A stretch of 61,883 nt of DNA, filler included. It is 5 parts of 5 records of this genome, joined end to end, with 100 filler letters (N's around TTAATTAATTAA, not from the genome) between each part and the next. Parts side by side here need not be neighbours in the genome. Positions count along the whole stretch, not along the records: positions 25,027 to 51,003 come from SRR2962707_3020; 4 more parts are not named here. One strand, given 5' to 3'. The position numbers and the translations under genes were made by a program. Position 1 is the stretch's first letter. Every line of letters begins with the position of its first letter. The notes beneath the pieces were generated by a model. The model made no database searches and was not told the origin of the DNA. It saw only the letters and a list, made by a program, of their open reading frames with translations. Of this stretch, positions 7,959-50,722 are shown in pieces.

Positions 7959-8037
7959 CCCCCCCCCCCCCCCTCCCTCTCATAACTTGACCCTCTCCAG
8001 CGCATCGCGGCCGACGGCCATTCTGTTGTACAAAGGA

Positions 8038-25067: not shown

Positions 25068-28000
25068 TCAACAAAACGCATCAAGCTGCATTCCGTTCGA
25101 CGTTTGGACGGCCACCGTGGGCAAACGTACCCCCATGGCGTCAACTTGGCCTCGTACAGAATGCGAGCGAAGCTCACGGCACACATCGGGCCATTCGGAA
25201 TTCAGTTCCTGTGCTCCGGTCCTCGCCAGCTGCAGCTCCCGCAATGCTTTCGCTTCACTCCCGTCTACGTTGTCCTTGCTCTGTTTGGCGTCTGCAATAC
25301 TATCCAGACTTTTCGTTGTTTCTGGGGCAAACTGCACTACGTGCTGCATGTCCTTTTCAGCAACGCCCGTGGCTACGGTGATTTGCCGCCCACTCACACC
25401 AGCATTCATGCTGCCAGGCTTTTGTGCAGCATCAACAGCAGCACATGGTTGAGCTTGATCGACCGAACTGCCAATCGAGTGGCCACAGTCACTGCCCTGC
25501 ACGGCCATGTTTGTGTTGACGCAGTTGCGTCGACGAACACTATCCTTCTGTTTGCCAACCTCCGCATTTGAATGCACATCCGATCCATTGATACTGCCAC
25601 TTTCGTCCCTCCTAATTGCGTCAGACGCTGCGTTGTCTGCCTGGGTGGCATCATTTGTCTCCCCGCCCAGCTGTGAACTTCTGGGCAAAGGTTCATTGAT
25701 CGTGTTTACCGGCAGCACTTTGCGTTTGCGGCTAGGCAGACGGCGCACCAGCAGAACCAGGCCGACGACAACGGCACAAGTGCAGAATGTGGCAAGCATC
25801 GTCCACCCTGCGAGGCACAATGCGCCGCAGTCACGATCAACACAGTCAACAGGGCACACAACACGTGCCGCTGACGAACGATCCTCCACAATCAGTAATA
25901 GACGCAGGCGAGAGTCCATGGGCACGTCGAACTCCCTGGCGGCTCCGGCGCGAAGCATTGCCCATGACATGTTGGAAGAATTAGCAACTTTCCAGGTGAA
26001 GCCGAGGCTGGATGCTCCAAGCAGCATGCGCCTGTTTTGCGTTGAGCTCGCCGGTGGTATGGAAGCTGATGCATCGAGGTCACAATGCTTCACGACGTCG
26101 TCGTCATTCAGTTCGTTGAACCAACACGTGCATGTTGCACTGCAGGTTGGGAGCTGCCCATCATCGGCGGCGACAACCACGTCCAGAAACCGAGTGACGA
26201 CTGCGTTGTCCCGGTCCGACACATCAAGCCGGAACGTATATGTGCCGCTGATAAGATCGCTGACGACCAATTCAGGGGCGGAGGTGTTCCTGATCAACGG
26301 GTATCCATTTTCGTGGTCGTTAGGCACTTGCGCCCAAGCAAATGACATATCGGACACGTTTGTTGCCACAAGTGCCGAAGTTGCAAACATTCCTGACCAA
26401 CCCAAAGACGAGTTTGGATTCTCACAATCTACGTCCGCAAACTCAGGCTGCACCAGTGCTTCTCGTTTCGGGGCGTGCACAATCTCCGTCTCCTTCATGC
26501 CAACTGTCGGCAAGCAGTTAATGCGCAGCACTTCCTCCCGTGTTTCCCACGCGTAGTTGTTGTCCATGACCTTCAGCCGAACACCCATCAAACCGCAAAA
26601 CTCTTCAATCGCAAATTCTGGCAAAAAATGTGTGCTGCTGATCGCTATGACAGGATCTGCAACAACCGGCGTTAAACTAATATTTTCAAATTGTACAGCT
26701 ACGCCAGAAACTTCAACTTCAAACTTCCGAAGCTCTCCATCGACGTCGAACGACGGGGCGGTGTCGACTTGCACGGTTTGAACTGGGTACCGAATTAACT
26801 TGTTGCTGCACAGCTGCCCCGTAGAATTTGGGGTGCTATCAGGGGCAGAAGTAACGGACGCTGGACCATCAGGGCAACGGATGTTGAACAGTGGAGTCGG
26901 GAATTCTTGGAAAGCCAATGCAAACACACTGGTTACCATAGCGCCTGATACTAACCGGCGGCGAGTGCGATCCAGGCTACCAAATAAATACCGCTGACTG
27001 CCAGATCCTGGCGTCGTGAACGACTCGTTTTGGGTGGTGGAGCATAACGCGCTGCCAATGGAGCATATATCAACACAGTACTGCCCAAGCAATCGGTCAA
27101 ATCTGTCCTCCCGCGGCGAGCAGCTTTCACCAGCATCGAACCATTTGCCGGCACACCTATTGAACACCAGTATCGCAGGGGCCTCGTCATTCGATGCCTC
27201 GTAGTCATAGTCGAGGCAAATCTCAACTGGCTTGGCGAACCGGGCAACGCCATCGGGATCTGCGTTGCTGAGGGATATCGAAAAAGCGTATCCACCGAGA
27301 GTAAACTCGGCGGACACAGCCGCCTCCAGACTCGATGCTTCATCGTCCGCGCGGCCACAAACCAACTCTGTGCCGTTAGCAAACGCCCCAGCGGGAATAT
27401 TCATTGCTCCTTGAATTGGTGGAACTGTTGCGTTAGGGTTTGCGGAAACAACGTCAAACATCACGGCCGTGTCTTGCTGGGCGTTGACTTCAATTTCGCT
27501 CAGGCCAATGAACATGCCGTCCGTTTGCATGCTCGAGCTATTGACCCCGGCCGCGTTCCATGCAACGACCTCGGCAAAGTAGGCCTCACCTTGCACTAGC
27601 GGCAGCTCGCACTCGCTCCACATGTGCCCGTCGTCGATCCGTGTCCACGGTGTTACAACGCTGCCATTAGCGACGCTAAACGTTGCTATGTCATAGGCTA
27701 CTACCGGTGCTAGCTCGGCATGTGAGTCAAACACTGCAAACAAACAATCGCCAACATTGGAGTTGTCAACATCGTAGCCGTTGAGGTCGTATCCATCGTT
27801 GGCAACTGTGATTGTTGGCGGCGTCAAATCAACCCTGAAGCCATCGGTTTCTGCAAAAGACTCCAAACCAGCGCCGTTCGTGCACGTGACTCTGAAAAAA
27901 TAGGCCCCAGCGTGGTGGAACAACGGGTATCCTTCGTCGTCCAACAGCCACACAGGGGTGTCATTAGCATTGATGTCGGTCCCGCTCTGACTGCATCTCA

Positions 28001-31000
28001 GCACAGCGCCATTGAAAGAGTCATGAACACACACCACGACTGAAACAATCCCCGACTCACTGTCAAAACACGAGCTCCACGAGACCGCCGCCTGGTCTGC
28101 AAAAGCGGTGAAATTGACGTCGGCGATATCCCACGTTCCATTTTCACTGTCGGCGGGTCGAGGATACACATCCGTGGGCCTTGTTGGCAATACTGGTGGT
28201 GTAGGGTCAAAAGTGAAACTTTGCACATCATACCGAACATTGTTGCCATTCGAGCCTTGTAAGTCAAGGGTAACCCATAACTTTTCCCCAGGCGCAACAA
28301 ACTCGGACACATTTGCCGTAATTGGCATACTGGCCACAACCATAGACTCCTCGTCTGAAGCGTTCACGCACAATGACGAGCGGCATGACGAACATTGGGT
28401 CTGCAACCCGCCAGGTGAGACCAGGTCGCTGGCTTGAACTGACTGTGACGACCCGACTACGTCAACGTCTGTACCGTACCATTCAGTTGCACAGTTCAGG
28501 CATTGGTTTCCTACTTTGAAGTGGTCAGGAGGGCAGTACACCAGTGCCGCAGCAACAACGAAAGTGCCATCCAACGACCGCTCCCACACCGTAATGGTGT
28601 CGTTCATAAACGTAACAGAGCGAGAGTCGGCGGCGCTCATGTTATGACGATACACAGTTGTTTGTAGACACGCGTTGTGATTCCCGTCCGACACAAGCTC
28701 GTACACAATATAGCCAACGTCCGACGCAACCAATACCAGCGCGACACGCTGCCGGGCACCAGCGTGTCGAGGATTCGCCGGTCGTACATCAAAAACAAAC
28801 ACTTCAGTTGCATAGGCAGCATCAGCAGGTTCGCTTGACTGCAGAGTGCACACCATGTTCAGATCTTGGCCAGCGCTGGTCCTATAAACCGCAACAAAAG
28901 GCCCGTCGGCTTTGGTTTGATTGAGACTTGGACTTCCTACTGCCAAAACGCCCTTGCTTGCGTCGCATGTGGATCCGAAACTGCTGCTGGGCACCGGTGA
29001 GCGAAGTTGATCAACAACACTGGAAACTGACGACCCACCTGTGGCGTTGAAACTGCGAACATGACAAACACAACACACAACACAGTTTCGTGCAAAATAT
29101 GAAAACTAAGTCACATGCAATTCCTGTTGCGATGTCTGGCAAGACAAAACGGTCCACCCAACGTACCGGTATAGAAAGATAGAAGAGTTGGTTGGCTGTC
29201 CAACCGCAAGGTATATATCTCCGACAACTGCTAAGCAGTCACCGAAGTGGAAACCAGACGCAGACAGACCGAAAGGACGACCAAAGTGACCGTGGGAGTC
29301 AAGAGAGGCAGCGCTCACCACGCCGCCCATATTAGATCTTCTTGACCATACCAGCCCGAAGTTCGGAACCCAAACAGTCACAAGCAACGACTCCTCCTCC
29401 AAGCGAATGCCGGCTGCTCCTGCGCCTATGTATTCACTTTCTGCCGTCAAATAATCAAGATGACAGTCAACCCAACTGCTTGTGCATGAAGGGTCGGAGT
29501 GAACGGTTACGGTCGTGATTGTTTCGTGGCCGCCGTTTCCTGAAACCACAAAAACGCTTGATCCCTGGATAGCGACAACGTTTTCGCTGACAGAAGCATT
29601 GCGTATGTTAAATTCCAATGTGTGCAGCACGGTCACCGCGGTCAATCCATTCCAGTCCAGCAGTGTAGCAGTCGCAACATCATCCTCGTAAACGACCAAA
29701 TTGACAATTTTGCCAGCAACGGTCATGGTGCGGTGCATCAAGACCGCCGAGGCCAACATTGACAGTTGCGGCAACAACAGCGCACTGCGGCTGTCAGGTT
29801 CGGATGGAATTGAACTGATGAAGTTGTCCGGCAAACGCAAAGACAGTGGGCAGCAAGGGCTCACCTCATCTTCGTAGAATAGGCTACGTTGCACATATGA
29901 GCGACGTTGGACAAGCTGTGCAAACGTTGTACCGCTTGAAAGTGCAGTGCTGTTTGCAGTTAAACTGCTGCAGTCGCGGTGCACTGACCACGAAGTCGCG
30001 TCGTGAGAATTGGTCATCAACCGCTTGAGGCACGTGCTGACTTGTGCGCTTTCAAAACACGCGTTCAAACGCTTACACAACGATGCGTCACGCGCCGCAA
30101 TACGCGCAGTCGAGAGCCAAACCGTGCTCGTGTTGCTGAGGTTGCGACTAGCCACGAATGCTGCTTCATCAACAGTAGTTCCGTTAGCCTCCGCAAAAGA
30201 GCAGGAGATCATGGATTTAAAGCGCATGGACCCTGATGTCATGCATTCGCCGTCGTCGGCCCAAACAACAACGAGCAGCAAACTACTTGCGTTGGTTTCG
30301 CTGTTCGCAGCACTAAAATGAAGGCTTGAGCCCAATACGTATGGAAGCGGACCGAGTGACAAAGGGAACTGACTGCTTGGCGACATCTCCAGGTCATTGG
30401 TACTATTGCATGGCAGCTCCGTGACTGCTGAGGCGTTGACGCACGACTCATTGACAGACTGTGTGGATTGAGCCCACAGCTGGGCAGAAATGCGGCGAAG
30501 GCGCACAAACGGCAAGCCACTTCCATTCAGTTCCGGATTCGTGGACGTAGCGTCATCCGGAATGATGGCTTCCACAAGCTCAAGCTCTGGCTCTGCCACA
30601 AAGTCACGAAATGCTTGTTCAATGCCCCGGCACGCATGCGTACTTGGGTCGACCATCACATACAGTGGGACTACTGGTTGCCCACTGAAGTAGCGCGAGC
30701 CGTTGGCTATTGGTCGCGGCAGATCAACTTCTGCACCTGCAATGCACGGAAAACCCGTACGAACTGCGATGGACGGAGACGACACGTTGCGCTCGAGGCC
30801 AGCTTTGTCGGTAGCGTGCAACACCGCTCGCGACGACGTGATATTGTTCACATCGAATGCCAACATCACCGGTAGCGCAGAATCTACAACCTCGACGTCC
30901 ACAGGTTGAAGCGCAAACGCAGGTTTCCCGTTGTCATGCAAGCACGTAAAATCAAGACTTCGCAAACTTGTAAAATTGGGTGAAGTGCGCCCCAGCACCA

Positions 31001-34000
31001 ACGACACATTGGCAGATGCGGTGTGAACGAACCCGTGCACGTGTTCGGAAAAGATGGGAACAAATGAGTCCAGCGCGTGCACGTCGTCAACAAACGTGGT
31101 AGCTGCCGCTCGAAATTCAGCCGTTCGATTAAACATATCTGAGCACGTGACATGTAGAGATCGCTTGATGCCCGCAGCACCGCTTTCATACAGCTGAATG
31201 AGAGCGGTGCTGGACGATGGAAAGGTTACCACGCCCGTCGATATCGACCGAGTCTCTTCACCTGTCGAGATCAGCTGCGCGTTGCAATCGTGGAGTTGTA
31301 AGCTGGATACCGTTGTGGACAAAGCAGCTGACACCAGACCGCTACGCCCTAGAGGCAGAACATTTGACCATGGTATCGTCTGTGTCGGCGGCAAAATAAG
31401 TTTGAATCCCGCACCTGCCGTCCCTTTGGCAGCGACTTCTGCAAAGGCGAAGGAGTCTCCCAGATGTACAACGTGCTCAAGATTTGCACGGACAGACCGC
31501 CCAACTGCATCTTCAAGTGCCAGCGAAATCACAACGGTAATATCCCACGAATAATTCGTTGTCGAGAACTGCAGCGTGGCTTGCCACGCCGGCATTTCGC
31601 CGGAAAACGTCTGACATGACATGGTGGATTCCGGGTCAGGGCTGTCCTGCAATCTTGCACACCACGTGCTTCGCAGAGAAGGTGCGCTAAGGTTCAACGG
31701 CAAATGGCCAACAGCCAGTATACACTGCTCGGTCGAGCCACTAGCGCCGCTGGGGCGAATCAAAACATCACTTACAAATAAAACTGGTTCATCCAACTCC
31801 GGGTGCCCGACCAGAATGGCAGGGCTCGTTGCTGTTGACAAGAGATCGCGTTCATTGCGCGCTTGCACACGCACTGTCCACGACACCCATCCATTCCGAC
31901 CAGCGGGGCGAACGCTGGCCAGAGGCACAACGATTGTGAAGCGAGAATGATGATTGGTTCCATTGAGTAAATAGGTACTGGAGGTTACATTCGGAGCCCC
32001 GATCGAGGAAAGGTCTGTGTGCCAACCAGCCTGGCCTGTTTCACTAATCAGGTGAACACTCAACGCCGTGATTGCTGTCTGGCCATCAAAAGCATTGAAA
32101 GATACTTCCAAGCCAGATCCAACGGCATAAAGGTGCACATTCTCGACCAACTTCTTCCCAGTCGCCGAGTCGCGCATAGATAAATTCGTTATTGCAGGCG
32201 GAGAGGTATCCAATGTACTGGCGAACTCGTCTACCACCCCGCTTGGATCACTCGCAACGACTTCGTCGCACAATGCACTGGTAAGTTCCTTACTTAAATT
32301 GTTTTGTACGACCGTTTCGTGACAGCACTGCAACGAAAAACGTGGAGCACCGCCGGTGGGAGCCCAGACATCAAGAACCCACTCATCCGACTGTGAATCA
32401 AACCAGCTAAGCTCCGCTTGCCCGCGTTGTCCGTCCACGCTCAATCGCAACCAGCAAAGCGCTGGATGCTTCCACAAAAAATGCATTGGAAGACCTTCCG
32501 CGAGCCAGGAAACTCTAGCGCGAGCGTCGAGCCCGAGGCCGCTTGCTGAATGAACAGCACCGCCCAGAGACACCGAAAAACCGTACTCTGCCATGTTCGG
32601 AGCTCTCAAGCCTGGATCAAAGCGTGAAGAAAACGCCACCGGCGACACGTGGCCAACAAAGTCATACAACCGAACAGCGGCAACCATACCTTTCAAGAAA
32701 TTTGACGCGTTTGACAACTTTAAAGCACGCTCGATGGGTAACGAGAACGTAAATGTGTGGTCGTGATGCCAGCGCCCAACAGAGCAATTCCGCACTCGCT
32801 CCAATACGTCCAACGCGCCTGCTTCGCGGCCGACTTCCCATTCAATGCACTGAATGCCGGACACGCGATCAAAACAGCTATTGCATTGAATAGAGAACCG
32901 CAGTTCAGTAGCAGAAGCAGACTCTTGTCGAATCTGTACACCAGTGATGGTGGGGGCCTCACTGTCGATCGCAAATGCCGCCGTGCATTTATGGCTTACA
33001 ACCGCCAAGGATGCGGAGTCGGCGTCGCAAACATCCCCTTTTAATACAACGCAGTATTTGTACATTTGCGCCGGCACCAGGGGGGATGTGGGCAATACCA
33101 CCGCTCCAGTAGTGTTGATGACGTAGGACTCCACCACCTCGTCGTCGACAACCTGCGTAAGTTGCACCGAAGCGTCAGACCAGGAACCAGCCGGCAGGGC
33201 CACGTACAAGCTCAATTGCGGTTCTAGCGACGAAAAAAAGGTCGTGGTGACACGCTCGATGCCATCGACAGCCTCATCCAAAGACACAAGCGAAGCGTTT
33301 GCCACCGGGAGAGGTACCGCCAGTGCTTTGAATTCCTCGGTACAGACCTTCCCTTCAACCAGGGATTGGCAAATGAGGCAAGCTTGGTAATCATACCCGT
33401 CCTGCAGAGGGGTCGACTCCGCCACAATTTCGACCTTACCCACAAGTAAATCTGGACTGTCCACCGCTACACTCGCTACTTGAGACCCCAATTCACTCAC
33501 GCTCACAATGAACGCGCGGCAAGTCTGTGAAGCAGTCACCTGGTCCAAAGGTTTCCAGGTCACCGATATTGCAGAAATTTGGCGCGTACAGCTACCCGTG
33601 AAGCTGGTCACTATTGTGTCTGGCATACTGACGGAAAACAGCTCACTGCGCAAATCCACAAACCGAGTCACGACCACCTGCGCACCGACAGCATCCACTG
33701 CGCGCAAAGTTACTGTGGCATCCAGCATTGACTCATTGCCGAAATGTGCTACCAAGATGCCTGAATCCATGCACAGCCGTTCGCGATACACCGTGGTTGC
33801 ATTCTCAAAGTTCCACACATCAAATTGTCGGCACTCGATCGGGTCAGCGTCAGTGAACTCAACGGGCCACCTGACGCACACCTCGTACAATGATGTTACC
33901 GTAAAGCTGTCAACAAACGCAAGCCACTCAACATCCACGCAAGCGCTGGTTCCTGCAGCGTTGTTACTGCTGCTCTGCACCGCGACTGTCGACGAGATCG

Positions 34001-40000: not shown

Positions 40001-43000
40001 CGACGAAAGTTGTGTTAGCGACCGAAGTGTTGTACAAAGACGTGCACTGTGGCGCAACAGTGTCGAAGCACACCACGGAGGAGTCAACAACCGCCGCCCG
40101 CCCACCACGGGTGAAGGCGGTGACCATTGCGAAAACATAGTCGCCTGCTCTCAAGAACGCAGACAAATCAAAACTTGCCGACGTTGCATCGCCTGCCACT
40201 GTCCATGAAGAGTCGAGCAATTCACACGCGGTGCGATTACGATCGCATTCCCGGGTCAGCCGGCGTATCTCGACCAGGTAGCAGCACATTGCCGACTCGT
40301 AATCAGTCGCTTCGGTCCACTGCACTTCGAAAGACGGCACTTGGACGCCCAACACGTGGTGAAACAGCGACTGAGCCGGGGGCGTGCGACTACGGTCAAA
40401 AATACGCACGGCGAAGTTGTCCGCAAAATCAATCCAACGCGACACTGGTACATCCAGCGGCGCTGATGCGAGGTGCATCATTCTGGAAGTCGTTAGTCCT
40501 GCGACGTGCTCGCTGAAGCCTGGCCGGTCAAAGGTCGGTGGAGTGTAGTCAAGCACAACCAGCGGCGACACGGCGTGTGACGCTAGTCCCACGGTATTGG
40601 TGACGCGGAGCGCGAAAACAAACGCGCTGCCATGAACCATGCCGCGTGGACACATTTGGACCAAGTACGTCGTGCCTTCGGCCTGCGGGACTACGCGAGT
40701 GAAACTTTCGTCGGGGAGCGAGCCAGGTTGCACAGCAATATCAGAGCAAGATGAGATGGGCTCAAAAAACGCCTTGCCGTCGTAGTACTCGTTGCTGAAG
40801 GATGACGATGATCCTTGCGTGCTCTGGGAGCAGGGAATCATCGCGTACTCCACAATAGCAGCCGTGCTGTTCCTCCCGTCGTCGCCTACGACAAACGCCA
40901 GAACAATGTCGGTGCTGTAGCTGAACTCTAGACGCCTCGGGTAGTCCGCTGGCACAGGCAGCGGGGTAAACGATACGCCCTGTGCGAAAAACGGTGCACC
41001 GAACGTGGTGTCAACGAAGGACAGCACCGGCTTCTCGTCGTCGAAGGCAATAACATTGCTGAATACGACTGTTGACAACCCTCCCGTATTATGCACAGTT
41101 GTGCGCGCTTGCACGTCCGTGAGATGACGTGCCGACACCGGCAAGACATATGTGCGGACGTTTCCAACGCTGCCAAGACAGTAAGCACCGGCTGTCGAGC
41201 GCGTGACAGCATCAACGAGACACACCTCGGAGGAGCTGGCTTGCGACTCGCGATCGATGATCCCGCCTGTGTACACGAGCACAGTGCCTTTGCCGACTTG
41301 CTGCGCTGACGTAAACTCGATTTCTGGACCAGTTGTGTCCGGCAGCGGAGCATTGAGGTGCAGTGTCCACAGTGGCTTGACCACGGTCGGCTGAGCCCAC
41401 TCCGACACATCAAACCACGTCTTGCCGCACCAGTCGAACCAGAGTCCGCAAGGAAATTTTACGCACGCTCCCATGCAGCAGCACGCCTTGCACCAAATGA
41501 TTACCGGGCACAATCGGTACTCGTAGTAGCCTCGCAACTGTAGCCTCAGCGGGTTGATGATGGCCTTGACATCCGCTTTGAAGTGCGGACGCCCGGTGGG
41601 ATCAACTGCGAGCGTTCCGGTGACTGGGAGCAACGTGTCCAGAATCGTGGCTGTCAGCATCAGGCCGGCCCGGATAATCTCAATCACCCGGAGCTCAACA
41701 TAGGCGTTGACAACGATACCCCCACCTGGGGTGATGGTGCCCTGCGCAGTAAGCTCCCACAAGTCCAGTTGCCAGGCATAGTCAACCGTGGCATAGCCGC
41801 CAGCGGACATTCCCAGAACCACCACAAAAAATAGCACCGGGATCGGAATCTCGTAGGTGAAAAAAATACCTGACCACGACCACAGCCGCCCACCGCCGGC
41901 TTTAGGCTCGAAAGCCTTGGCAAGTGCGGTGGCATCGAAAAAGACACTACCGACGTCACAGAGGTCGCCAGCGTCGAGAAAACAACGCGGCTCCACGACG
42001 TAGCGCCCTAAGAAGTTCACGAAGACCTCGTTCTCGAGGATCTTCGGCGCTAGGTTCTGCTTCAGCGGCGGAAGGCCAAGAGCGAGGCAGCGGTCTTCAA
42101 TCCCGCGTTGGTGCATCCCGAGCAGCGTCGAGCGCGTTGACAAAGATGCGCTCCACGTAGCAAGCCAAATGTCATCTGAGTCCTCATGAAAGGCAAGCGC
42201 GCCGATACCCATTGGCAACCGCACATTGCGCGCTACCGTGCCCCGCGGATACGCCTCCGGTACGAGCGTGACGGAGTTCCGGTAGTGGAACTCGACGCGG
42301 CACTGAAAGTCCGCCGCCAATGTACACCTTGACACAGCGACGTAGTCCGTGCCGAGCTGATTCACCATGACAAAGTCCTTGACATTGGGTCCGACGATGT
42401 GCACTTGGACACAGCTTGATTCAGTTCCTGCCGCCAACGATGCTTCATCGAGTGAGCACAAGACCGATCCTGCCAGCACGTACAGCTTCCCATCTTTGTT
42501 GGCAAACAATGCATGGGCCCCGTCAGGCGCGTCGAGAATCACGGCGGGTACGACCGTGCCGAGCATGTTTGGACCATTGGCCGCGGAGGCGGCGATGGCG
42601 GTCGGGTAGACAGCTAGCAAATTGCCTGAACAGAGCACCCACGTGTACAATAAACCCGCGGCAACGTCCATGGCATCGCCGCAGGTGAGGTCACGTGTAT
42701 CAGAATTAATTGCCATCACGTTGACTATGGTTCCGCTATTTTTGTCCTGCACCACCAACACCGGCGCGAACTCCTCTGCCCCCTGGCCAACCTCGCCGCT
42801 CATAGCGTGCAGCAGGTGGTCGCCAGTCGCTGACGATGCAAGGGACATTTCAAGCCCACGCGAGACGTAAAAGTTTTCGAGCCCAGGCATTCGCACACCG
42901 CGCACATCCGCGCTGCCGATGCCCTGATTCAGAATGGAAAAAAAGGGAAACTGCTCCTGAAAGCCATCAAGGTACGCTTCGTTGTCAACACCCGCGGGTG

Positions 43001-46000
43001 GGTCGTTGGTAATGCACACGTCACGTCCTCCATCAACTTGGCCCCGAATGCACCAAGTAGGCGTCACCGCCACGGCGCTCGCTGCTTCCTTGGCTCGAGA
43101 CAGTATGCTGTACAGTTCAGCTCGAACTGCATCAACCGTATCGACGAACGTCTTGTGGCGGAGACGCAACCCAGGCACAGTCGTTTGGTACCACACAAGG
43201 TCCGCATTCGCTCCTCCCATGTAAAACTGGCCGCTGATATTGACTTCGTCGTGCACCGATGCTGAAAAATCCAAAAAATTGGCAGCTGCAGCCGCACCCT
43301 GCAGAAGTGCTGGCTGCGTAGTAGTCGAGTTCGAAATCGATGCGTTGACTGCGTGCAGGACATCATGCAGAAACGTCGTCGACGTGGATGTGATATCGAT
43401 TGCAGCGCTCCAAGTTTGAAAGGTGGAGACGGCTGGGGAAAAAAAAGAAGCCGTGATGTTTTCCGCGGTCTCATGCAGATTTCTGGCAATGCTCGCTATG
43501 TCAGGTGTTACTCCTTTCGCGTCGTCTCCGTAAAAAAAATCCATGGTGTCCCCCAGGACTGTTGCCGACTCATTCGAACCATTTGAGGAGCCTTGCTGGG
43601 CGTAGGCTGGCTTCAAAAATCCGAGGCGAGCCCATCGTGCCACATCTCCGCGCGAGAACAAAGGCCAGCTAGGCACATTGTCACTGGCGCCAGCGAGAGC
43701 TGCAATGCCAGCACCAGCAAAGTCAACGAAAAGCTTCGATTCATTGGCAAACGCGCGGGTTGGAGTCGCTTGCAACGACGTGAACAGGGCCCGGATTTCG
43801 TCGGCCGTTTCCTGCCACTCAGGCGATTGCTGTTCGACACCAACGCGACTGATCTGGCGAAGCAACAAAATGGCTTGAGCGACACTGCTGCCAAACTCGA
43901 TACCAATCACGGCAGACGGAACCTGTGCCGACAACTCTGTCGCAGTGGTGGCGAAAGCTCGAAGTTTTGTGGCGTTTAGCTGCGCGGCGTTAGCAAGAAC
44001 AGCGAGTCGTCGCCGCGCCAAACACATTGATTGATTTGCACGCAGTGCGACAGCCAGAACGCAACACTGTTCACGGTTCCAGGCCTGCCTCGCTGCATCC
44101 CACAGCCGATTATCGTCGATGATGCCACCGTTAACTTCGCCAGCGAGAGCTCTGTCGATCACAGCCTTAACCTTTTGCAGCGCTGCCAGCACACTCTGTA
44201 TGGTAGTCCGAGGTTCAGTGACGTTGTCAACCAGCGTCGATGCACCAGTAAGCGCTTCGCAGTGCACGTGCAACGATGGCACGCTCGTTTGCAACGTCTG
44301 CGCTGTGGCAAATGCAGTGACGATGTTAGCATCGATCGAGGACAAGGCGGCCTCAAGCGTGGGCACCACACGCTTCAGCAGCACGGAGCGAAACACTGTC
44401 ACAACACTTAGGGCGCCAGCGTTGGCCATGTCGCTTTCCGTGGCATCGCCGTGAACCGCCTCGCCAAAACCTTGTCCCACCAACGCCACGTCGTCCAGAG
44501 CGTTTGCAAACTCAGAGAAATGCACCATCGTGTCCGCAGTGTCGTTGGAACCGTCATTCCATGCGCTCGAGTTCCATAGCACTGTCGCAGGAAATGAACT
44601 TCGAAGTGCGCGCAGACGGTCGCTGCCTGTCGCGCTGTTTAAACCTGTGAGAGCAGAGGTCACGCTACCGTTGACGCCGAACGCTGCACCCAGCGCATGT
44701 AGCTCTGTTTCCATGTCGAAACGATCAGCGTCGCTGGCCGACGATGCGAAATGTTGCAGTTCTTCGAGGCGTAAGCTGACTCTATCCAAGAACCAGTCTG
44801 TCGCGGCGAGGGCAGCGGGAATGCTGAGGTCGACGCGCTTCACTGCTCGCAACGACGATCGCATTGTGCCAGACAAGTTGTTGCTATTAGAGGCGTGCCA
44901 GGCATCCTCCATGGCATCCCACCTCTCGTTGTCCACGGCGTTCGTAAATTGTGACAACGCATTGGCCCAGTCCTGCCCGTCCACCTGTATCTGTCGCGCG
45001 ATGCTGGCGGCGGCGGCAAAGCGACCAAAGATGGTTTCTTGCTCGGGAAAAGTCTGCGTTAGCTTCGAAATCTCCTGAAGCCAACCGTTTGCTTCGTCAG
45101 CAGCGCTGTCGAGGGGCGATTCAAACCATTTCGCGCGCGATTCGAAGCTCTGCACGATGTGGGCTAGCTCTCCAAGTGCATTCGCGTCAGCCACCTCCGA
45201 GTCTGCTGCCAGCCGGGCCAACAACAGGTGTTGCGAGAGCACGAGGCTCAGGTGGCTAATTTGATCCTGCGATTCCAGCTCCCGGAGCAGCTGTGATAGC
45301 GCGTCGGCTCTTCCTTGACTTTCACCCAGCAGCGAGGCGACGCCTTCCACGGTACAGTTTTTGCCCCACAGCGTGCGATTGCCCAACTCAGCCGCAGATT
45401 CAACCATGTCGAGAACGTATTCAGCCGCATCACGTGCACCAGCCGACGCCCCGCCGGGTGGCAAGTTTTGTGGGATATTCTGTACGAGCGACTCTCGAAT
45501 GGACGAGACGACGCCTGTGGTCAGGTTGTGCAGCCGTGTCCATGCATCTAACATGACCGACGAATCGAGTCGCAGCTGCTCCGCCGTGCGCACCAAACGA
45601 GTCAGAAACGAGGTTGTGCCAATGTCTGCCAAGCGCTGCTGGGTTGCGGCAGGCGTTTCGACAAACTGCATGGCATTATTGAGAGCAATCTCCAGTTGCG
45701 TTGCTGCACCATCAAGGTCCACGCTGGCCATTTGACGCAGGGACTCCAGTGCTGCGGAACTGCTCGTCACGAGTGCATCGAACTCGGAAGTGACGTTAAA
45801 CATCGTCCTATTGTGGCGCAGTTCAAACGCCAGCGGTTCCACGTGGTGCTGATACAGCTTCAGCCACGCGCCACTGTCAGCATCGTCGTTTGCTTCGGCG
45901 AACCGAATCGCGGCGTGCATGCTGGCCAAACGTTCTCTCCACGCCAATACCCTCGACGTGACCGGCGACAATTGGTTTAGCGCGATTGACGCGGAGCTGT

Positions 46001-49000
46001 TGTTGTTGACATTGTTGCACAGTAACAAGGTTTCCGGGGCTATCGAGCGCCGCGCACCGTCAATACCCTTCAGCGCCTCCGCGACATCCTCCACCACCCG
46101 TAAAGCCGCGTCAAACGCCGCCACCCCTTCTAACTCTGTGGAGACCGGATCGCAGCTCGTCGCGTTATCAACGACAATGCCCTGGCACTCAAACACACCA
46201 ACGACACCGGCATCTGTCATTGTGGGCACAGCAGCTCCTGCCAGTGAGGAAAGTGACATCAACAGCGCGTTATTTGCGGAGGCAGCACTAGTGGCAGCAC
46301 CGACAGCTTGCGGGTAACACTCAGCGTCAAGAAGCACGTCAATCGCGCCGTTATAATCCGAATTTTCGAATTTGGAGGCGGCGTTGGGCACACAATCATC
46401 AAAAAACGACTCCAGGGAGTTGTCAAGACCGTCCAAACGTGCCCGCGCGTCGTCCGCCATGCGGGCAAGGCTCGCTGCGTTGGTTGAAAAATCGTTCAAT
46501 GCGTCAAGCGCGCCTTCGTCCACACGATAGTCCACTGCGTTCTCCCTCGCGGTGGCCCACGTCGCAGTGGCGGTCCATGGTGCCAAATGCGATCGAGCAC
46601 ATAAAAACACAGCGTGTGGAGCAGCAACTTGGCTGGCTCCGTTCTCTGAAGCAGTCACCCCGACCGACGGAGGATACGCCGCGAACCGTAGTAGTCCCGA
46701 TTCGGTCCGCCAACACTCACTTTGCTGGTCATTGCCATCCGCTCCGTCGCCCTGACCACGCGCGGTCACTTCAATGCCTAAATCAAACTCTTTGGCAGCC
46801 ATGTCGCACTGCACAACAGACGAAACAGGGGCGAACGGGTACGTGCACCCGGTGGAGCTGTTGACTTTGAAGTACGCCGTGCTGTTCTCCTGCAGCGTCA
46901 AGCCTGCCCCAGCGAACAGCTTCGGCGTAATCAGCTCCTGTAAGCTCCTCGAGGTAGACAGATAAGCAGCTGTGCTGTCATTCGCCGATTGCACCGCTTC
47001 GGCAGCTTCCTCGCTCTGCTTGACCAGCCTGCGCATGGCCCTCCAAAATGGCCCCACGAAAAACTCGGTAGATTGCACAAACGGCGCAAGCTCAGAATCG
47101 AAAAAAACCTGGTGCTCAAACTCAAACTGCTCCGCGACTTGTGTTTGCACGCCGTTCAAGTGCCGAATGGCGTCCAGCGTGTTCAAGTTCACTGAAAGTG
47201 CACCCTTGGCGTCTTCGTCTGTTTGTGCCCATAGGTCGTCCAGCGCATCCACGAGCGCCGCAATACCCGGGATGAGGTCTTCCAAGTCGTCTCGAAACGT
47301 AGCCGTTATCTGCATGAGCAGCGTGTAGTGGCCCGGTGCGAAACTACGCTGCACGTCCTCGTCTACAACGGATTCTTCCAGCACGTCGGCTGGCTGCGGG
47401 GTAATGAGCTGCAAGGGCTCAGTGACAAAGTTTGCCTTCGCTTCGAAAAGGGTAAGCTCGTGGCTGAAGGCAGTGGCCCACACACGGCCCTCGTTAACAA
47501 GCACCACGCTTGATGTGGCAAAGTATGGGTTGAGCCGGAACGCAATCTCATCATGCATGTGAACAAGCATGCTGGCGGCCACCAGCCGCGGGTCACCAAT
47601 CACCTTGCTCCAGTCAAACTGCTTGGAGATTCCCACGTTGATTGTGGGCAGCAGGTCGCCCAAGGTGAGGCGCCGGCGGTGGAATGATGTGCTACTGATA
47701 TTCCTGTAGCTGCTGTTTGGCAGGTCATCCATGGTGTCGGCGTACCCTTGTTGTCCGCCAGCAGCCCCTGCTGTGTGCGCAGCACGTTGCAGGCAATCCT
47801 GCACGGCCTGGAAGACTTCCGCAACAATTCTCAGGTCGTCGTTCTCATCCTCTCCAGATGTACTTTTCGCCCGGCCCCGTTGGTGATCGTTGACACTCGC
47901 ACCACCCGCGGCCTCGCCTTGGCTCAAGATTCGTTGCAACTCTTGCCGCAGAGTAGTGTGCGCTTCTGTGTCGTTGTATGCCGCGAGGCATGCGTCGACG
48001 GCCCGTGCCGCCAACAAGGACAGTTCAAGAGCAGCATGCGTTTGGTTCAAATTTTCGAACAGACTTGTAACAGCGTCCCGGCGCTGCGTAGTGATTGGCG
48101 CTGTGCATGCCAGGCGCACGAGCTCCAAGGTGGCATTCACGTGCACCACACGGCGCAGCACTCTGACGTAGGCGGACAGCACCCGCGGGTCCGATGCCGA
48201 GAAACGCCAAATGTCTGGGCCGACGCTGAGGATCCAATCGTCTCCCATGTTCCCCAGCCCGTGTAGCGCGTCAAGTACGGCATTCTGGATTGCCCGCGAT
48301 TCGCGGTCCCACCTATCCGCAGCGGGGTGCAAAAACTCCGTCATGGCGCGCGAGCAAATGCGAGGCCCTGTTGCAGCTTCTGGATCTGGCCCGTCGCGCT
48401 CGTAGTCTTGTCGCTCGGCCATTTCCGCTCCGGCATCTTGCTCGGGGGTGGTGTGACAATACATTGTGAGCAGCCAAGGATTCGAGGAGTAATGGTGCTT
48501 TGCGGCGCGGAGCCAGTGCATGCGACGGCGGGGAGGCGAGGAACTCCACATTGCTTTCGCCGCGGAGACTTGACTGGCACGAGAGCGACTTCGGTGGGAC
48601 TGCAGCCTGCGCAAGGATGCGAGCGCGCGGCGGCGAATGTTCAATCGCAATGCACCCACGTCGCCTCGCCGTCTCTCGAAATGATCTTGAGACAAGCGTT
48701 GGTTGTTCCAGCGCAGCCGATAATCTTCCGATCCTGCACGATGCGTAGGAGGCTGTCTCAAGCTACTGTCCACAACGACAACAGGTATCGGAGGCGACGG
48801 CGGAACCGTGGTGTCCAGCAGCGTCGCTGCAGCGCTGCCGAGCACGGCCAGGGATAAATTGGAGTCGCTCGCACCCGTGACACGGCCACTAATTTCGCCA
48901 GTGGCACGCAGGTGCGAGGTCGTCGCATTCAGCACAATATCGAACATGTGGTCGAGGGCCTCACGATGACAAATGACGCGGCAGGGGTTGGTGCCAATGG

Positions 49001-50722
49001 CTGTGAGCAGCTCGTGCATGTGCCCGCCTCGCAGCGTGCTGGTTCGAGACACAAGATTGGACAACATCCGAAGCATCGGTGGATCCGCAGCGGCTACAAG
49101 AACATGAAACAACATTTTGAGCGTCGATTCACCATAAGACCTGGACTCCTCCAATCGAATGGCAAGATGTAGCCCCACCGCAGCCACGGTGGTGCAGTTG
49201 TTAGTGTGGTTCCGCAGCAGAAGGTCCAGTCCCATCGCAACTTCCGCGCGCTGCGCATATGTGCTGCTTGGATTCTGAGTAACTGCATCGACGCGTGATA
49301 GTTGTGTTTGGAGCTTGTTGTGCAGCCACATCCCACCTTCGTGGCTTTCCAACAGCTCGCCTGCAACGGTGTCGTTCGCGATCAGTGCGTCAACGACATC
49401 CGTGCACGTCGCAACGGGCCCAGGGGCTTGGTCTTGTGCCAGATACTCGGCGGCAATCAGGTGCAGTGCTGCAACAACTGAAAGCTCATCCTCGACAGGC
49501 GTCGTCGCCGCGCTTGCCACACGCGGGATACTGTCAGAACGCGCGCGCAGCTCAACACGCATTGTGTGCTGCGAAAATCGGCTTGAAAGGTTGCCACTGG
49601 ACAAGTGAGACACGTGCAGGTGCGTCACATGTTCCACGTTGACTGGGACCATGGGTAGTGACGCGTTCCCAGAACCTTGGCCAGCGAAAGAATGAAGCAC
49701 CACTTCGTGCTCGAGAGACGTCTGCATACGCACATGCATATGTACAAACAAAACGAACGCAAAGGCAGGCAAAAGGCAGGCAGGCATGCGTCACTGCGAG
49801 CAATGCCACTCAAGCATTGCATCTCCCTTCGCTAACAAGAGCAGGCATCGCGGTCGACGAACGGACGTACCTGGACGGGTAGTGCATTTGCATGCCTCGG
49901 GAAGGCGTTGTGCATGCGCCCTGGCCGAAACTCGCGCAAGTCGCTGTGAGAGGCCATCATTGAAATGCGCAATTGACGTTGTTCCGGGCCGGACGAGACT
50001 GCGACAAGGCGTGGTGTGAAGGGACCAAAAGGCCCTTGCAGAATGGCATCTACGGTATTGCTGCTCTGCCCCTCAGTGCGGTTCAGTGCATTATGTTCGG
50101 CTTTTGGTTGTGCAAAGCCGGTCGGTAGTCGAAACTGCAACGCGGCCGCGATCCCTTTCAGTGCGTTGACGGCCTCGGCAGGAACGGCACTCTCTTTGCC
50201 AATGTTTGGCAAGAAATACGGGATAGAGCCATTGCGAAATCCAAGGAACAACCCGGTGCGCCCGTCGAGAAGGTCTATCAAATCGTCGTGCGCACGGTAC
50301 TCGACGCTCTCGCTTGGGTACAGCGGCGACTTTCTCGCAGCCATGCGTGGGCGCAAAATGGTCACCGACAACAAGAAATCTGGAGCCTCGCTATCAATGA
50401 GTAGGGCTTTCTCCACCCCTGGGCTCGGATTGTGCAAGCTTTGCCATCGAGCTGCGACTGAGGCTAACACAGTGACCGGGGGCACTGAAGAAACGGGAAT
50501 GCCGCCTGCCTGGCTGCCGTTGCCTGCGCCAGCCGACGAGACTGTGGTGGCGGTGAGCGTGGCATCAAAGTCGACAGACACCGTGCGTGGCGCCCCTTGG
50601 TGGTCGTACGACACATGCCGGATCGGCGAGCCTGTTGCAGACCCCAGGCTTATCCAATGCGTGCTGCTGCAAGCCACGACCAACAACAGCAAAAACCATT
50701 GGCCGGCACACGCTCGCTCCAT
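25068..50722 (-). CDS. Giant (~8,463 aa) single-pass type-I membrane protein: signal peptide, LLT/vitellogenin-N-like head, helical region, beta-propeller-like region, >20 FN3/Ig-like repeats, FG-GAP-like propeller, PKD-like domains, TM helix, ~225-aa tail
   Basis: The three ORF-track ORFs (302, 6893, 1336 aa) join via two canonical introns: 49870-49722 (CAG|GTACGT...ATGCAG|ACG, phase 0) and 29166-29053 (CG|GTACGT...TCGCAG|T, phase 2). Exons 852+20,555+3,985 = 25,392 nt, divisible by 3. N-terminal hydrophobic WFLLLLVVACSS; TM GALCLAGWTMLATFCTCAVVVGLVLLV (~25827-25747) followed by basic RRLPSRKRK; very many N-x-S/T sequons upstream of the TM. Gene model is strong; domain identities are by-eye. 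Confidence 0.88.

What the first reader, a model, noticed from the sequence alone, without database searches (positions are those of the whole stretch)
25068..50722. An ~8,460-aa membrane-tethered large-lipid-transfer-like protein: a vitellogenin/apoB-type head on a very long stalk
Seen: three apparently separate ORFs splice into one 25,392-nt CDS with a signal peptide, one C-terminal TM helix and a short tail. The N-terminus has GFRNGSIPYF...VNALKGIAAALQF (~50240-50131) and a helical region containing LDALHGLGNMG (~48276-48244). Established: in the LLTP superfamily (vitellogenin, apoB, MTP, apolipophorin) the beta-barrel has an N-x-K/R-G-I/L-x-S-L-x-Q motif and the helical domain an L-x-A-L-G-N-A-G-like motif. 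These proteins are classically soluble and metazoan. Inference: this is a protist surface protein holding a lipid-binding module far from the cell, e.g. for lipid scavenging, prey or substrate capture, or membrane recognition. It is my best candidate for an undescribed system here.
Basis: partly seen in the sequence, partly recalled or inferred. Interest (0 to 1): 0.82.

Follow-up and report, generated by a model that had tools for sequence, protein, structure and literature searches.

The report
Giant orphan surface protein of a protist
This is a real, expressed gene for an 8,463-residue membrane-anchored surface glycoprotein of a gliding marine flagellate, built as an unrecognised helical head on a long chain of immunoglobulin-like domains; its proposed kinship with animal lipid carriers could be neither proven nor excluded.

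Summary
Three minus-strand ORFs join through two GT-AG introns into one 25,392-nt CDS of 8,463 aa. A transcriptome protein matches the first 3,979 aa across intron 1. One 25,480-nt spliced contig skips exactly intron 2. The protein has a signal-peptide-like start, one C-terminal TM helix and a 225-aa tail. It carries 126 N-glycosylation sequons against 57 expected.

The architecture has four parts:
- a Pro/Gly-rich N-terminal region of about 330 aa;
- about 2,100 aa of helix-rich sequence;
- a 570-aa Gly/Cys-rich beta region;
- about 5,000 aa of divergent Ig/FN3-like units, 21 found by HMM, followed by one PKD domain.

The vitellogenin/apoB-type head is unproven.
- Pfam, PDB sequence searches and comparison with bacterial Vitellogenin_N proteins gave nothing significant.
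- Two AlphaFold models were too poor to test the fold (pLDDT 40 and 35).
- In favour are only three short hallmark-like motifs in the right order and language-model neighbours scoring 0.87, below the tool's reliability line.

Among about 15 billion proteins the only relative is one 292-aa fragment. My best reading is a fibrillar surface adhesion, recognition or coat protein.

The parts
49871..50722 (-). Exon 1 (aa 1-284), ATG at 50722
   Evidence: P0001 starts with the same Met and runs through the joint.
49722..49870 (-). Intron 1, 149 nt, GTACGT...CAG
   Evidence: It is absent from transcriptome protein P0001.
29167..49721 (-). Exon 2 (aa 285-7135 plus two bases of codon 7136)
   Evidence: Contig of run X1 is continuous over 29167-47499.
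29053..29166 (-). Intron 2, 114 nt, GTACGT...CAG
   Evidence: It is skipped exactly by the 25,480-nt contig of run X1.
25068..29052 (-). Exon 3 (aa 7136 third base to 8463, stop TGA at 25070-25068)
50636..50722 (-). Signal-peptide-like N-terminus (aa 1 to about 19-29)
   Evidence: Read from the sequence. No predictor was run.
50138..50167 (-). Motif A, NALKGIAAAL (aa 186-195), in the Pro/Gly-rich N-terminal region (aa 30-359)
   Evidence: It is unique in the protein. The same pattern occurs in bacterial Vitellogenin_N protein L151 at residue 164.
48807..49496 (-). Helix-rich region, part 1 (aa 360-589). Holds the block LL.AI.TNPCRV.CHR shared with the only relative, P0002.
   Evidence: Helices are seen in both low-confidence models.
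48369..48806 (-). Basic Arg/Ser-rich insertion (aa 590-735)
   Evidence: Sequence, composition.
47697..48368 (-). Helix-rich region, part 2 (aa 736-959), with motif B, LHGLGNMG (aa 770-777, 48266-48243)
47337..47696 (-). Short non-helical zone (aa 960-1079) with motif C, SKQFDWS (aa 983-989, 47627-47607)
43077..47336 (-). Helix-rich, Cys-poor tract (aa 1080-2499). No family hit and no internal repeat.
41367..43076 (-). Gly/Cys-rich beta-type region (aa 2500-3069) with a hydrophobic 19-mer at aa 2902 (about 41870-41796)
27810..41354 (-). Array of divergent Ig/FN3-like units (aa 3074-7550; spans intron 2). 21 copies were found by HMM.
   Evidence: - The D-x-[TSDE]-[AP]-P boundary motif occurs 16 times in the array, against 1.2 expected for the whole protein.
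- The HMM found 21 copies and none in decoys.
- The profile hits titin and an adhesin in the PDB.
- Weak Pfam hits: fn3, Big_3 and DUF7743.
26172..26357 (-). K319L-like PKD domain (aa 8035-8096)
   Evidence: Pfam PF22352, 27.9-28 bits against a cut-off of 27.
25746..25820 (-). Transmembrane helix (aa 8214-8238), followed by RRLPSRKRK
25071..25745 (-). Cytoplasmic tail (aa 8239-8463, 225 aa). No Tyr, one sequon, no family hit.
38537..38637 (-). Optional 101-nt GT-AG intron inside exon 2. Removing it shifts the frame and stops after 9 codons, giving a 3,988-aa anchorless product.
   Evidence: It is spliced out in P0001 and retained in the X1 contig.

Best explanation
The locus is a single three-exon gene of a heterotrophic stramenopile flagellate. 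The only named identical protein is filed under Incisomonas marina. It encodes an 8,463-aa, roughly 930-kDa type I membrane glycoprotein.

**Shown**
- The gene is spliced and transcribed.
- It has a signal-peptide-like start, one C-terminal membrane helix with positive residues inside, and a 225-aa tail.
- Its ectodomain is twofold enriched in N-glycosylation sequons.
- It contains at least 21 tandem, very divergent Ig/FN3-like units and a membrane-proximal PKD domain.

**Inferred**
- The beta-rich 5,000 aa could hold about 40-45 such units. They would form a fibril on the order of 150-200 nm.
- This fibril would hold a 2,500-aa, Cys-poor, mostly helical distal part away from the cell.

**Most likely function**
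- The protein acts as a surface fibril for contact at a distance. That could be adhesion to the substrate on which the organism glides, and/or capture and recognition of bacterial prey. Its tail would couple it to the cell interior.
- A related possibility is that it builds or regulates the surface coat, as FMG1 does in Chlamydomonas.
- The first 1,000 aa may be an extremely diverged front half (barrel plus helical solenoid) of the vitellogenin/MTP/apoB superfamily. I put this at about 0.4 and do not build the explanation on it.
For: - **Gene model and splicing:**
- **Topology features:**
- **Sequons:** 126 observed against 57.3 +/- 6.5 in 300 shuffles (maximum 77). 125 lie in the ectodomain and 1 in the tail.
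- **Stalk:**
  - Boundary motif found 17 times in all, 16 of them at aa 3342-7544, against 1.2 +/- 1.2 in 200 shuffles of the protein.
  - An HMM seeded from 8 units finds 21 copies at aa 3074-7550 and 0 in block-shuffled or reversed decoys.
  - The profile of the 21 units matches titin (E 3e-4), an adhesin (7e-4) and other Ig/FN3 chains in the PDB.
  - PKD domain is above the Pfam cut-off.
- **Three-zone composition** (Pro/Gly-rich, helix-rich, beta-rich).
- **Organism context:** 'a uniciliate gliding opalozoan' is a title in the reference list of PMC12614181.
- **Analogue:** Chlamydomonas FMG-1B has 4,389 aa, a 4,340-aa outer part, one TM helix and a short cytoplasmic part, and was linked to gliding (PMC7759384, introduction passages). 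It is built from structural repeats of low sequence self-similarity (bioRxiv 10.1101/2024.09.28.615573, abstract and section headings).
Against: - No localisation, binding or phenotype data exist, so function rests on architecture and analogy alone.
- No signal-peptide or topology predictor was run.
- The hydrophobic 19-mer at aa 2902 (Kyte-Doolittle 2.11) could be a second membrane segment, which would change the topology. I think this unlikely because both flanks look extracellular.
- The newer FMG1 study reports that the double mutant still glides and adheres more (abstract). The analogy therefore argues as much for a coat or anti-adhesive role as for an adhesin.
- The run behind the spliced contig is only guessed to be RNA. 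It may not be independent of the transcriptome behind P0001.
Confidence: 0.6

Rival explanations
1. The N-terminal 1,000 aa or so is a true large-lipid-transfer module (vitellogenin/MTP/apoB type). The stalk holds it out to bind lipids or amphiphilic bacterial surface molecules, for scavenging or prey recognition.
For: - **Language-model neighbours.** For aa 25-1224, ranks 1 and 3 are eukaryotic Vitellogenin_N clusters (0.87 and 0.86). All ten best family-bearing hits share that family or its HEAT-like clan.
- **Three ordered motifs.** Each is unique in the 8,463 aa, and they occur in the same order as in L151, a bacterial protein that matches PF01347 at HMM positions 1-164 and 300-524.
  - NALKGIAAAL at 186, against residue 164 in L151.
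  - LHGLGNMG at 770, against 495.
  - SKQFDWS at 983, against 573.
- **Motif chance rates.** In shuffled 1,300-aa heads the motifs occur at 4.5e-4, 2e-3 and 5e-3.
- **Register.** hhalign's best, though insignificant, local alignments put the first two motifs in register with the bacterial consensus.
- **Recalled background.** A secreted helical solenoid preceded by a non-helical domain is unusual outside this superfamily.
Against: - PF01347, DUF1943, DUF1081 and VWD are all absent at E<=10.
- No LLTP appears among PDB sequence hits at E<=10.
- hhalign against the 31-sequence bacterial profile gives P=0.21, against 0.23-0.87 for other parts of the protein and 0.72 for the reversed head. Sub-regions give P 0.057-0.64, within the range of shuffles.
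- Smith-Waterman Z-scores against matching L151 segments are -0.6 to 0.9.
- The colinear chaining score was reached by 118 of 2,409 block shuffles, and it does not pass through the motifs.
- The motif patterns were written after seeing both sequences, so their shuffle rates overstate significance. The LGNxG plus VRxAAxAL pattern also looks like generic HEAT repeats.
- The Atlas 'recognition' value of 1729 is below the 2300 line, under which the tool calls a high score weak evidence.
- No room is evident for the lipid-cavity sheets.
Confidence: 0.2
2. It is a glycocalyx or mucin-like coat protein. The giant N-glycosylated ectodomain forms a protective, adhesion-limiting layer on the cell or cilium, and the head has no ligand of its own.
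For: - Strong sequon enrichment.
- Repeats of low sequence self-similarity, as described for FMG1. That study found FMG1 to be protective and adhesion-regulating rather than adhesion-conferring (abstract).
- An optional splice would give an anchorless 3,988-aa form that could be shed into the coat.
Against: - Ser/Thr/Pro-rich mucin tracts are absent.
- A 2,500-aa ordered-looking, Cys-poor helical part with a block conserved in the only relative suggests a specific distal module rather than filler.
- Abundance is unknown.
Confidence: 0.2
3. It is an artefact: a mis-assembled or chimeric contig, a pseudogene, or three separate genes.
For: - The assembly piece is almost exactly gene-sized and bounded by artificial linkers.
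- A prokaryote-style gene call split it into ORFs of 296 and 6,893 aa.
Against: - There is an uninterrupted 8,463-codon frame with consistent intron phases.
- A spliced 25,480-nt contig covers window 27500-47499 with no differing letters.
- An independent-format transcriptome ORF is identical over 3,979 aa.
Confidence: 0.03

Closest known systems
Large lipid transfer proteins (vitellogenin/lipovitellin, MTP large subunit, apoB, apolipophorin; Pfam Vitellogenin_N PF01347)
   Same: - Secretory N-terminus.
- A non-helical N-terminal region followed by a long helical region.
- Three short hallmark-like motifs in the same order as in a PF01347-positive bacterial protein.
- Language-model neighbours.
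   Different: - No significant sequence, profile or structural match.
- A 145-aa basic insertion splits the helical region.
- No recognisable lipid-cavity sheets or VWD domain.
- Membrane-anchored, and five to ten times longer than most members.
Chlamydomonas FMG-1B / FMG1 ciliary glycoprotein
   Same: - A giant N-glycosylated ectodomain, one C-terminal TM helix and a small cytoplasmic part.
- Structural repeats with little sequence self-similarity.
- Host cell glides on surfaces.
   Different: - About half the size (4,389 aa).
- Homology was not tested, because no FMG1 sequence was available to the tools.
- FMG1 is described as a mucin orthologue. The protein here has a large helical distal part and a longer, 225-aa tail.
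Giant tandem Ig-like fibrillar adhesins (bacterial Big/SiiE-type, titin-like Ig/FN3 arrays)
   Same: Tandem beta-sandwich units of 100-130 aa with a D-x-T-P-P type boundary. The profile matches titin, an adhesin, and PDB entry 2yn3 (filed as 'putative inner membrane protein', which I recall to be a SiiE fragment). Weak Big_3 and fn3 Pfam hits were also seen.
   Different: - Eukaryotic, spliced and type I anchored.
- Units share only 14-28% identity with the reference unit.
- Most are below Pfam cut-offs.
KIAA0319-like PKD-domain surface proteins
   Same: One K319L-like PKD domain next to the membrane helix.
   Different: Only a single domain, barely above the cut-off. The rest of the protein is unrelated.
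Myxobacterial Vitellogenin_N proteins (e.g. L151, 829 aa; about 650-700-aa membrane-anchored forms)
   Same: They are anchored or exported proteins. They carry the NxxKRG..AL-type, LGNxG-type and S..Y.WS-type motifs used here as tool-derived references.
   Different: They are clear PF01347 members (26-58 bits). The protist head is not, and it shows no significant profile similarity to them.

Membership tests
LLTP superfamily (Vitellogenin_N / LPD_N) | Match to Pfam PF01347 at or above its cut-off (24 bits) | tested here: not met
   No family at all was found at E<=10. This held for P0001 (aa 1-3988), for exon-wise pieces and for nine pieces of 241-561 aa. P0002 is also negative.
LLTP superfamily (Vitellogenin_N / LPD_N) | Sequence similarity to solved members (lipovitellin, MTP, vitellogenin, apoB chains in the PDB) | tested here: not met
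   phmmer with P0001 and hmmsearch with alignment A1 at E<=10 returned only unrelated chance hits.
LLTP superfamily (Vitellogenin_N / LPD_N) | Fold: N-terminal beta-barrel packed against a two-layer helical solenoid | tested here: inconclusive
AlphaFold2 on aa 25-1224 (alignment depth 2) gave pLDDT 39.7. On aa 285-620 it gave 35.4.
LLTP superfamily (Vitellogenin_N / LPD_N) | Large beta-sheets (C and A sheets; DUF1943/DUF1081 regions) forming the lipid cavity after the helical domain | tested here: inconclusive
   No Pfam hit was found. Only about 120 non-helical residues (aa 960-1079) precede a helix-rich 1,400 aa. There is no reliable structure to judge from.
LLTP superfamily (Vitellogenin_N / LPD_N) | [quoted passage not shown] The published N1-N22 set is given only in supplements of PMC1783640, which were closed. 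| tested here: inconclusive
   Three motifs, defined from PF01347-positive bacterial proteins, are present once each and in order. The patterns are post hoc, and one of them is HEAT-like.
LLTP superfamily (Vitellogenin_N / LPD_N) | Profile-profile similarity to verified family members | tested here: not met
   hhalign against 31 myxobacterial members gave P=0.21 for the whole head and 0.057-0.64 for parts, no better than controls. The chaining test was reached by 118 of 2,409 shuffles. No eukaryotic member sequences were available.
LLTP superfamily (Vitellogenin_N / LPD_N) | Binds or transfers lipid | not testable with these tools
   Needs biochemistry.
Tandem Ig/FN3-like fibrillar surface proteins | Head-to-tail beta-sandwich units of about 100-130 aa | tested here: met
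   16 boundary motifs fall in the array, against 1.2 expected for the whole protein. An HMM finds 21 units and none in decoys. The profile hits Ig/FN3 chains in the PDB.
Tandem Ig/FN3-like fibrillar surface proteins | Units reach a curated Pfam cut-off | tested here: inconclusive
   DUF7743 scored 31 bits (cut-off 27) in the long piece but only 20.2 bits in a shorter piece. fn3, Big_3_2, Big_13 and Big_3_4 are all below cut-off.
PKD domain (K319L-like, PF22352) | Match above the cut-off of 27 bits | tested here: met
   27.9 and 28.0 bits at aa 8035-8096. This is marginal.
FMG1-type giant ciliary glycoproteins (functional analogue) | Signal peptide, giant N-glycosylated ectodomain, one C-terminal TM helix, small tail | tested here: met
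   Compared with the description in PMC7759384.
FMG1-type giant ciliary glycoproteins (functional analogue) | Sequence homology to FMG1 and ciliary location | not tested
   No FMG1 sequence was available to the tools. Location needs experiment.

The most novel reading that the evidence does not exclude
The head is a genuine but extremely diverged vitellogenin/MTP/apoB-type module: a barrel plus solenoid, split by a basic insertion. It is permanently tethered to the plasma or ciliary membrane at the tip of a fibril some 150-200 nm long, in a bacterivorous stramenopile. There it would recognise amphiphilic bacterial surface molecules or pick up lipid. That would be a membrane-anchored, receptor-like use of a fold known from soluble animal lipid carriers. 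An optional splice would release a 3,988-aa soluble form.
Probability: 0.25. Interest if true: 0.75.

Novelty: new variant of a known kind. Interest (0 to 1): 0.42.

Why it matters
- Marine heterotrophic stramenopiles (MAST groups) are major bacterial grazers. The molecules by which they touch surfaces and prey are essentially unknown.
- This gene gives a concrete, expressed candidate: one of the largest proteins encoded by the organism, with a 2,500-aa distal part. The one exhaustive search made, on aa 285-1384, found no relative among about 15 billion predicted proteins except one 292-aa fragment; the rest of that part was tested only against family, PDB and Atlas libraries.
- If the head proves to be LLTP-related, a membrane-tethered, receptor-like form would be added to the family. 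The family already appears in bacteria and, per earlier unchecked notes of this scan, in Naegleria.
- That would bear on whether pattern recognition or lipid carriage was the family's older role.
- If it is not LLTP-related, the head is a new extracellular helical module worth a structure.

Tried and rejected
**Searches for relatives**
- Self-BLAST of 250-aa chunks gave 1 weak off-diagonal match. Single-seed iterative phmmer gave no repeats. Repeats appeared only with a multi-unit seed.
- Exhaustive phmmer of aa 285-1384 over 1.84 billion representatives found only P0002, E 2.7e-5.
- Word-index searches were run three ways: near lengths, shorter lengths, and the two-sequence profile. They returned only the window's own products and P0002.
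- Two metagenome scans gave 195 and 142 pattern matches and 0 confirmed relatives.

**Family, structure and PDB look-ups**
- Atlas on aa 1225-2500 gave no usable hit.
- PDB phmmer on aa 2480-3180 gave 0 hits at E<=10.
- Foldseek was run on a low-confidence model, so its solenoid hits mean nothing.
- Self-hhalign of the helix-rich tract found no repeats.
- hhalign -glob did not give a global alignment (12 columns), so that test was discarded.

**Genome searches**
- The window's own genome is not held.
- PF01347 matched in 1 of 124 genomes of the phylum of G002, the genome holding locus L066 (titled Bdellovibrionota). This was too few to widen the reference profile.

**RNA evidence**
- No RNA holder is listed. 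The one run is only guessed to be RNA.

**Literature**
- Searches for LLTPs in protists or stramenopiles found none. No paper holds 'LLTP', 'vitellogenin' and 'protists' together. Three hold 'vitellogenin' and 'stramenopile', none on this topic by title or abstract.
- A search for motif strings found nothing relevant.
- The Incisomonas paper PMC12614181 has no occurrence of vitellogenin, lipid transfer or adhesi-.
- The N1-N22 motif alignment of PMC1783640 sits in closed supplements.

**Neighbours**
- The 4,144-aa neighbouring ORF is not a paralogue. It is a UCH-type deubiquitinase on another assembly piece.

Full report
**1. What is in the sequence**

The region holds three long minus-strand ORFs. 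Reading the joints shows two short introns.
- Intron 1 is 49870-49722 (149 nt) and intron 2 is 29166-29053 (114 nt).
- Both start GTACGT and end CAG, and the phases fit.
- Joined in a script, the exons are 50722-49871, 49721-29167 and 29052-25068.

The window is not one continuous molecule. Four 100-nt linkers (44 N, TTAATTAATTAA, 44 N) lie at 7859-7958, 24927-25026, 51004-51103 and 56480-56579. The gene therefore fills one 25,977-nt assembly piece by itself, and neighbours beyond the linkers cannot be used as context.

**2. Is it one expressed gene?**

Yes.
- A word-index search returned P0001, a 3,988-aa TransDecoder-style ORF filed in EukProt under Incisomonas marina.
- P0001 is identical to my model from Met1 to residue 3979, running straight across the exon 1/2 joint.
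- The only public run found to hold the stretch (X1, kept as contigs, kind only guessed as RNA) contains a single 25,480-nt contig.
- That contig covers window 27500-47499 without a differing letter. Its only joint is a skip of exactly 29053-29166.
- A contig lacking an intron that the genomic piece has is most simply cDNA. Its length fits the whole mRNA. Whether it also lacks intron 1 was not seen, because the laid stretch ended at 47499.
- X1 and the transcriptome behind P0001 may not be independent.

P0001 departs from the model after residue 3979 because a further 101-nt GT-AG intron (38637-38537) is removed there.
- The removal shifts the frame, and a stop follows after 9 codons.
- The X1 contig keeps these 101 nt.
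- Both forms therefore seem to exist. One encodes the full anchored protein. The other encodes a 3,988-aa product with signal peptide but no anchor. Their proportions are unknown.

**3. Anatomy of the protein**

*Ends.*
- The N-terminus looks like a signal peptide: R3, then hydrophobic W9-A17, then small residues.
- A hydrophobic stretch at aa 8214-8238 is followed by RRLPSRKRK and a 225-aa tail without Tyr.
- The tail is longer than 'short'.

*Glycosylation.* N-x-S/T sequons number 126, against 57.3 +/- 6.5 in 300 shuffles (maximum 77). 125 lie before the membrane helix. This fits a heavily N-glycosylated ectodomain.

*Zones by composition and sequence.*

| Residues | Character |
|---|---|
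| 30-359 | Pro/Gly-rich (15.5%), not helical-looking |
| 360-2499 | Helix-favouring, Cys-poor (25 Cys in the first 2,499 aa) |
| 590-735 | Basic Arg/Ser-rich insertion within the helical zone |
| 960-1079 | Short non-helical zone within the helical zone |
| 2500-3069 | Gly/Cys-rich and beta-favouring; hydrophobic 19-mer at aa 2902 (Kyte-Doolittle 2.11) |
| 3070-8213 | Beta-favouring; together with aa 2500-3069 it holds 146 Cys |

I take the hydrophobic 19-mer at aa 2902 to be buried rather than membrane-spanning, because both of its flanks look extracellular. This is inference.

*The stalk.*
- Simple self-comparison found almost nothing.
- The boundary pattern D-x-[TSDE]-[AP]-P occurs 17 times in the whole protein, 16 of them between aa 3342 and 7544, often 101-133 aa apart. 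Shuffles of the whole protein give 1.2.
- An HMM seeded from eight such units and iterated finds 21 units between aa 3074 and 7550, and none in block-shuffled or reversed decoys.
- The units share 14-28% identity with the reference unit.
- Their profile weakly matches titin (E 3e-4), an adhesin (7e-4), myomesin, and PDB entry 2yn3 (filed as 'putative inner membrane protein', which I recall to be a SiiE fragment), among other Ig/FN3 chains.
- Pfam gives only marginal Ig-type hits: DUF7743 at 31 bits in one scan and 20 in another, plus fn3, Big_3_2, Big_13 and Big_3_4 below cut-off.
- One K319L-like PKD domain just above cut-off lies at aa 8035-8096, next to the membrane.
- At about 115 aa per unit, the 5,000-aa beta tract could hold some 40-45 units, that is a fibril of the order of 150-200 nm. 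This is inference.

**4. The head: is it a large-lipid-transfer module?**

The quoted strings are at the stated places (aa 161-197 and 767-777). Every alignment-based test I could run was negative.
- Pfam at E<=10 gave nothing on P0001 whole, on exon-wise pieces or on nine pieces of 241-561 aa. It also gave nothing relevant on the only relative, P0002.
- PDB sequence and profile searches at E<=10 listed no lipovitellin, MTP, vitellogenin or apoB.
- Exhaustive phmmer of aa 285-1384 over 1.84 billion representatives found one protein only. It is P0002, a 292-aa fragment from a 2,493-nt contig, about 40% identical over the helical block LL.AI.TNPCRV.CHR.
- Further word-index and metagenome searches added nothing.
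- With an alignment depth of two, AlphaFold2 gave mean pLDDT 39.7 (aa 25-1224) and 35.4 (aa 285-620).
This is neither support nor refutation.

To obtain reference sequences from tools rather than memory, I searched Myxococcota genomes with PF01347.
- 59 of 301 genomes match, mostly over the helical half of the model.
- One 829-aa protein (L151) matches HMM positions 1-164 and 300-524. It is related to the 650-700-aa proteins over its residues of about 110-560.
- L151 carries NLKRGVISAL at residue 164, LSALGNAG at 495 and SLTYYWS at 573.
- The protist protein has NALKGIAAAL at 186, LHGLGNMG at 770 and SKQFDWS at 983. Each is unique in 8,463 aa, and the order is the same.
- In shuffled 1,300-aa heads these patterns occur at rates of 4.5e-4, 2e-3 and 5e-3.
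- The patterns were written after seeing both sequences, however. Many window pairs and many family motifs were implicitly tried. The second motif, with its following VRxAAxAL-type helix, also looks like ordinary HEAT repeats. I therefore treat the motifs as suggestive only.

Profile tests do not back the motifs.

| Test | Result |
|---|---|
| hhalign, head against 31-sequence bacterial profile | P=0.21 |
| Same, six other 1,200-aa parts of the protein | P=0.23-0.87 |
| Same, reversed head | P=0.72 |
| hhalign, sub-regions of the head | P=0.057-0.64, scores within those of shuffles |
| Smith-Waterman against matching L151 segments | Z = -0.6 to 0.9 |
| Cheap-gap colinear chaining against a PSSM of the bacterial set | Reached by 118 of 2,409 composition-preserving shuffles |

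- In the sub-region test, the best local alignments do put motifs A and B in register with the bacterial consensus.
- The best chain in the chaining test did not run through the motifs.
- These references are bacterial. No eukaryotic LLTP sequence could be obtained, so the power of the tests is limited.

The one independent positive is the protein-language-model search.
- For aa 25-1224, the nearest clusters are Vitellogenin_N clusters from arthropods and chordates (0.87 and 0.86) and bacterial HEAT/Vitellogenin_N clusters. 169 of 256 features are shared.
- By the tool's own calibration, scores under 0.9 with 'recognition' 1729 (below 2300) are a lead only. The helical repeats alone might draw such neighbours.
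- The same search on aa 1225-2500 gave no usable hit.

Only about 120 non-helical residues follow the solenoid before 1,400 helix-rich residues. I see no place for the large sheets that make the lipid cavity of this family. Even if the front half is related, a lipid-carrying function is not implied.

I put homology of the head to the family's front half at about 0.4, and a lipid-binding role at about 0.2-0.25.

**5. What it most likely does**

The shown features are secretory entry, a single C-terminal anchor, dense sequons, a long Ig-like array, a membrane-proximal PKD domain and a distinct distal module conserved in the one known relative. These are the features of a fibrillar cell-surface protein that makes contact at a distance.
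- The species name attached to the identical transcriptome protein belongs to 'a uniciliate gliding opalozoan' (title in the reference list of PMC12614181). That paper has no occurrence of vitellogenin, lipid transfer or adhesi-.
- The nearest functional analogue I could document is Chlamydomonas FMG-1B. It has 4,389 aa, of which 4,340 lie outside, one TM helix and a short cytoplasmic part thought to meet intraflagellar transport. It was linked to gliding (PMC7759384, introduction passages).
- A later preprint describes FMG1 as built from structural repeats of low sequence self-similarity. It reports that the double mutant still glides and adheres more, making FMG1 a protective, adhesion-regulating coat (abstract and headings).
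- Hence my best explanation is a surface fibril for adhesion to substrate and/or prey. A coat role is a serious rival, and the tethered lipid-binding module is a less likely but more novel rival.

**6. Novelty**
- Giant repetitive type I surface glycoproteins are a known kind.
- This one is a new variant. It is about 930 kDa, and its 2,500-aa helical distal part matches no catalogued family. The exhaustive search (aa 285-1384 only) and the word-index searches (which cover aa 1-1284) found no relative among about 15 billion proteins beyond one fragment.
- I found no paper on LLTPs in protists or stramenopiles in the searchable library.
- Earlier unchecked notes of this scan report Pfam-positive LLTPs in Naegleria and split LLTP-like modules in bacteria. 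My Myxococcota search agrees that the domain is not confined to animals.
- The supplements of PMC1783640, which hold the family's N1-N22 motif alignment, were closed. They could sharpen or weaken the motif argument.

**7. Verdict**
- Interest is moderate. It would be high if the head's fold proves to be LLTP-like.

Noticed in passing
window 7859-7958, 24927-25026, 51004-51103, 56480-56579: There are four artificial 100-nt linkers (44 N, TTAATTAATTAA, 44 N). The window is therefore a chain of separate assembly pieces, and gene neighbourhood across them is not evidence of linkage.
   Followed up: yes
window 38537-38637 (-): An optional 101-nt GT-AG intron lies inside exon 2. It is removed in the EukProt transcriptome ORF and kept in the X1 contig. 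Removal gives a 3,988-aa product with signal peptide but no membrane anchor.
   Followed up: partly
window 12242-24673 (-): A second giant open frame of 4,144 aa lies on the adjoining assembly piece. It has a ubiquitin C-terminal hydrolase (UCH, PF00443) domain at residues 3219-3847, E 9.8e-24. It is unrelated to the finding.
   Followed up: partly
window about 41796-41870 (-), aa 2902-2926: A strongly hydrophobic segment sits inside a Gly/Cys-rich beta region (aa 2500-3069), followed about 110 aa later by a cluster of cysteines. No Pfam or PDB sequence match was found. It could be a buried core, a membrane-inserting element or a second TM helix.
   Followed up: partly
window 54011-55672 (-) and 56701-57792 (+): On other assembly pieces there is an ORF with a triose-phosphate-transporter family domain. 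There is also an ORF with glycoside hydrolase family 20 (hexosaminidase) domains.
   Followed up: no
L151:870-3356 (-) and loci L121-L150: Myxococcota commonly encode membrane-anchored or exported proteins matching Pfam Vitellogenin_N (59 of 301 genomes). One 829-aa protein matches both the barrel and the helical parts of the model and continues into a beta-rich C-terminal part.
   Followed up: partly
P0002 versus window 49721 (start of exon 2): The only relative, a 292-aa ORF from a 2,493-nt contig, begins aligned to the first residues of exon 2. This hints at an intron at the same position in the relative. Its contig could not be fetched.
   Followed up: no
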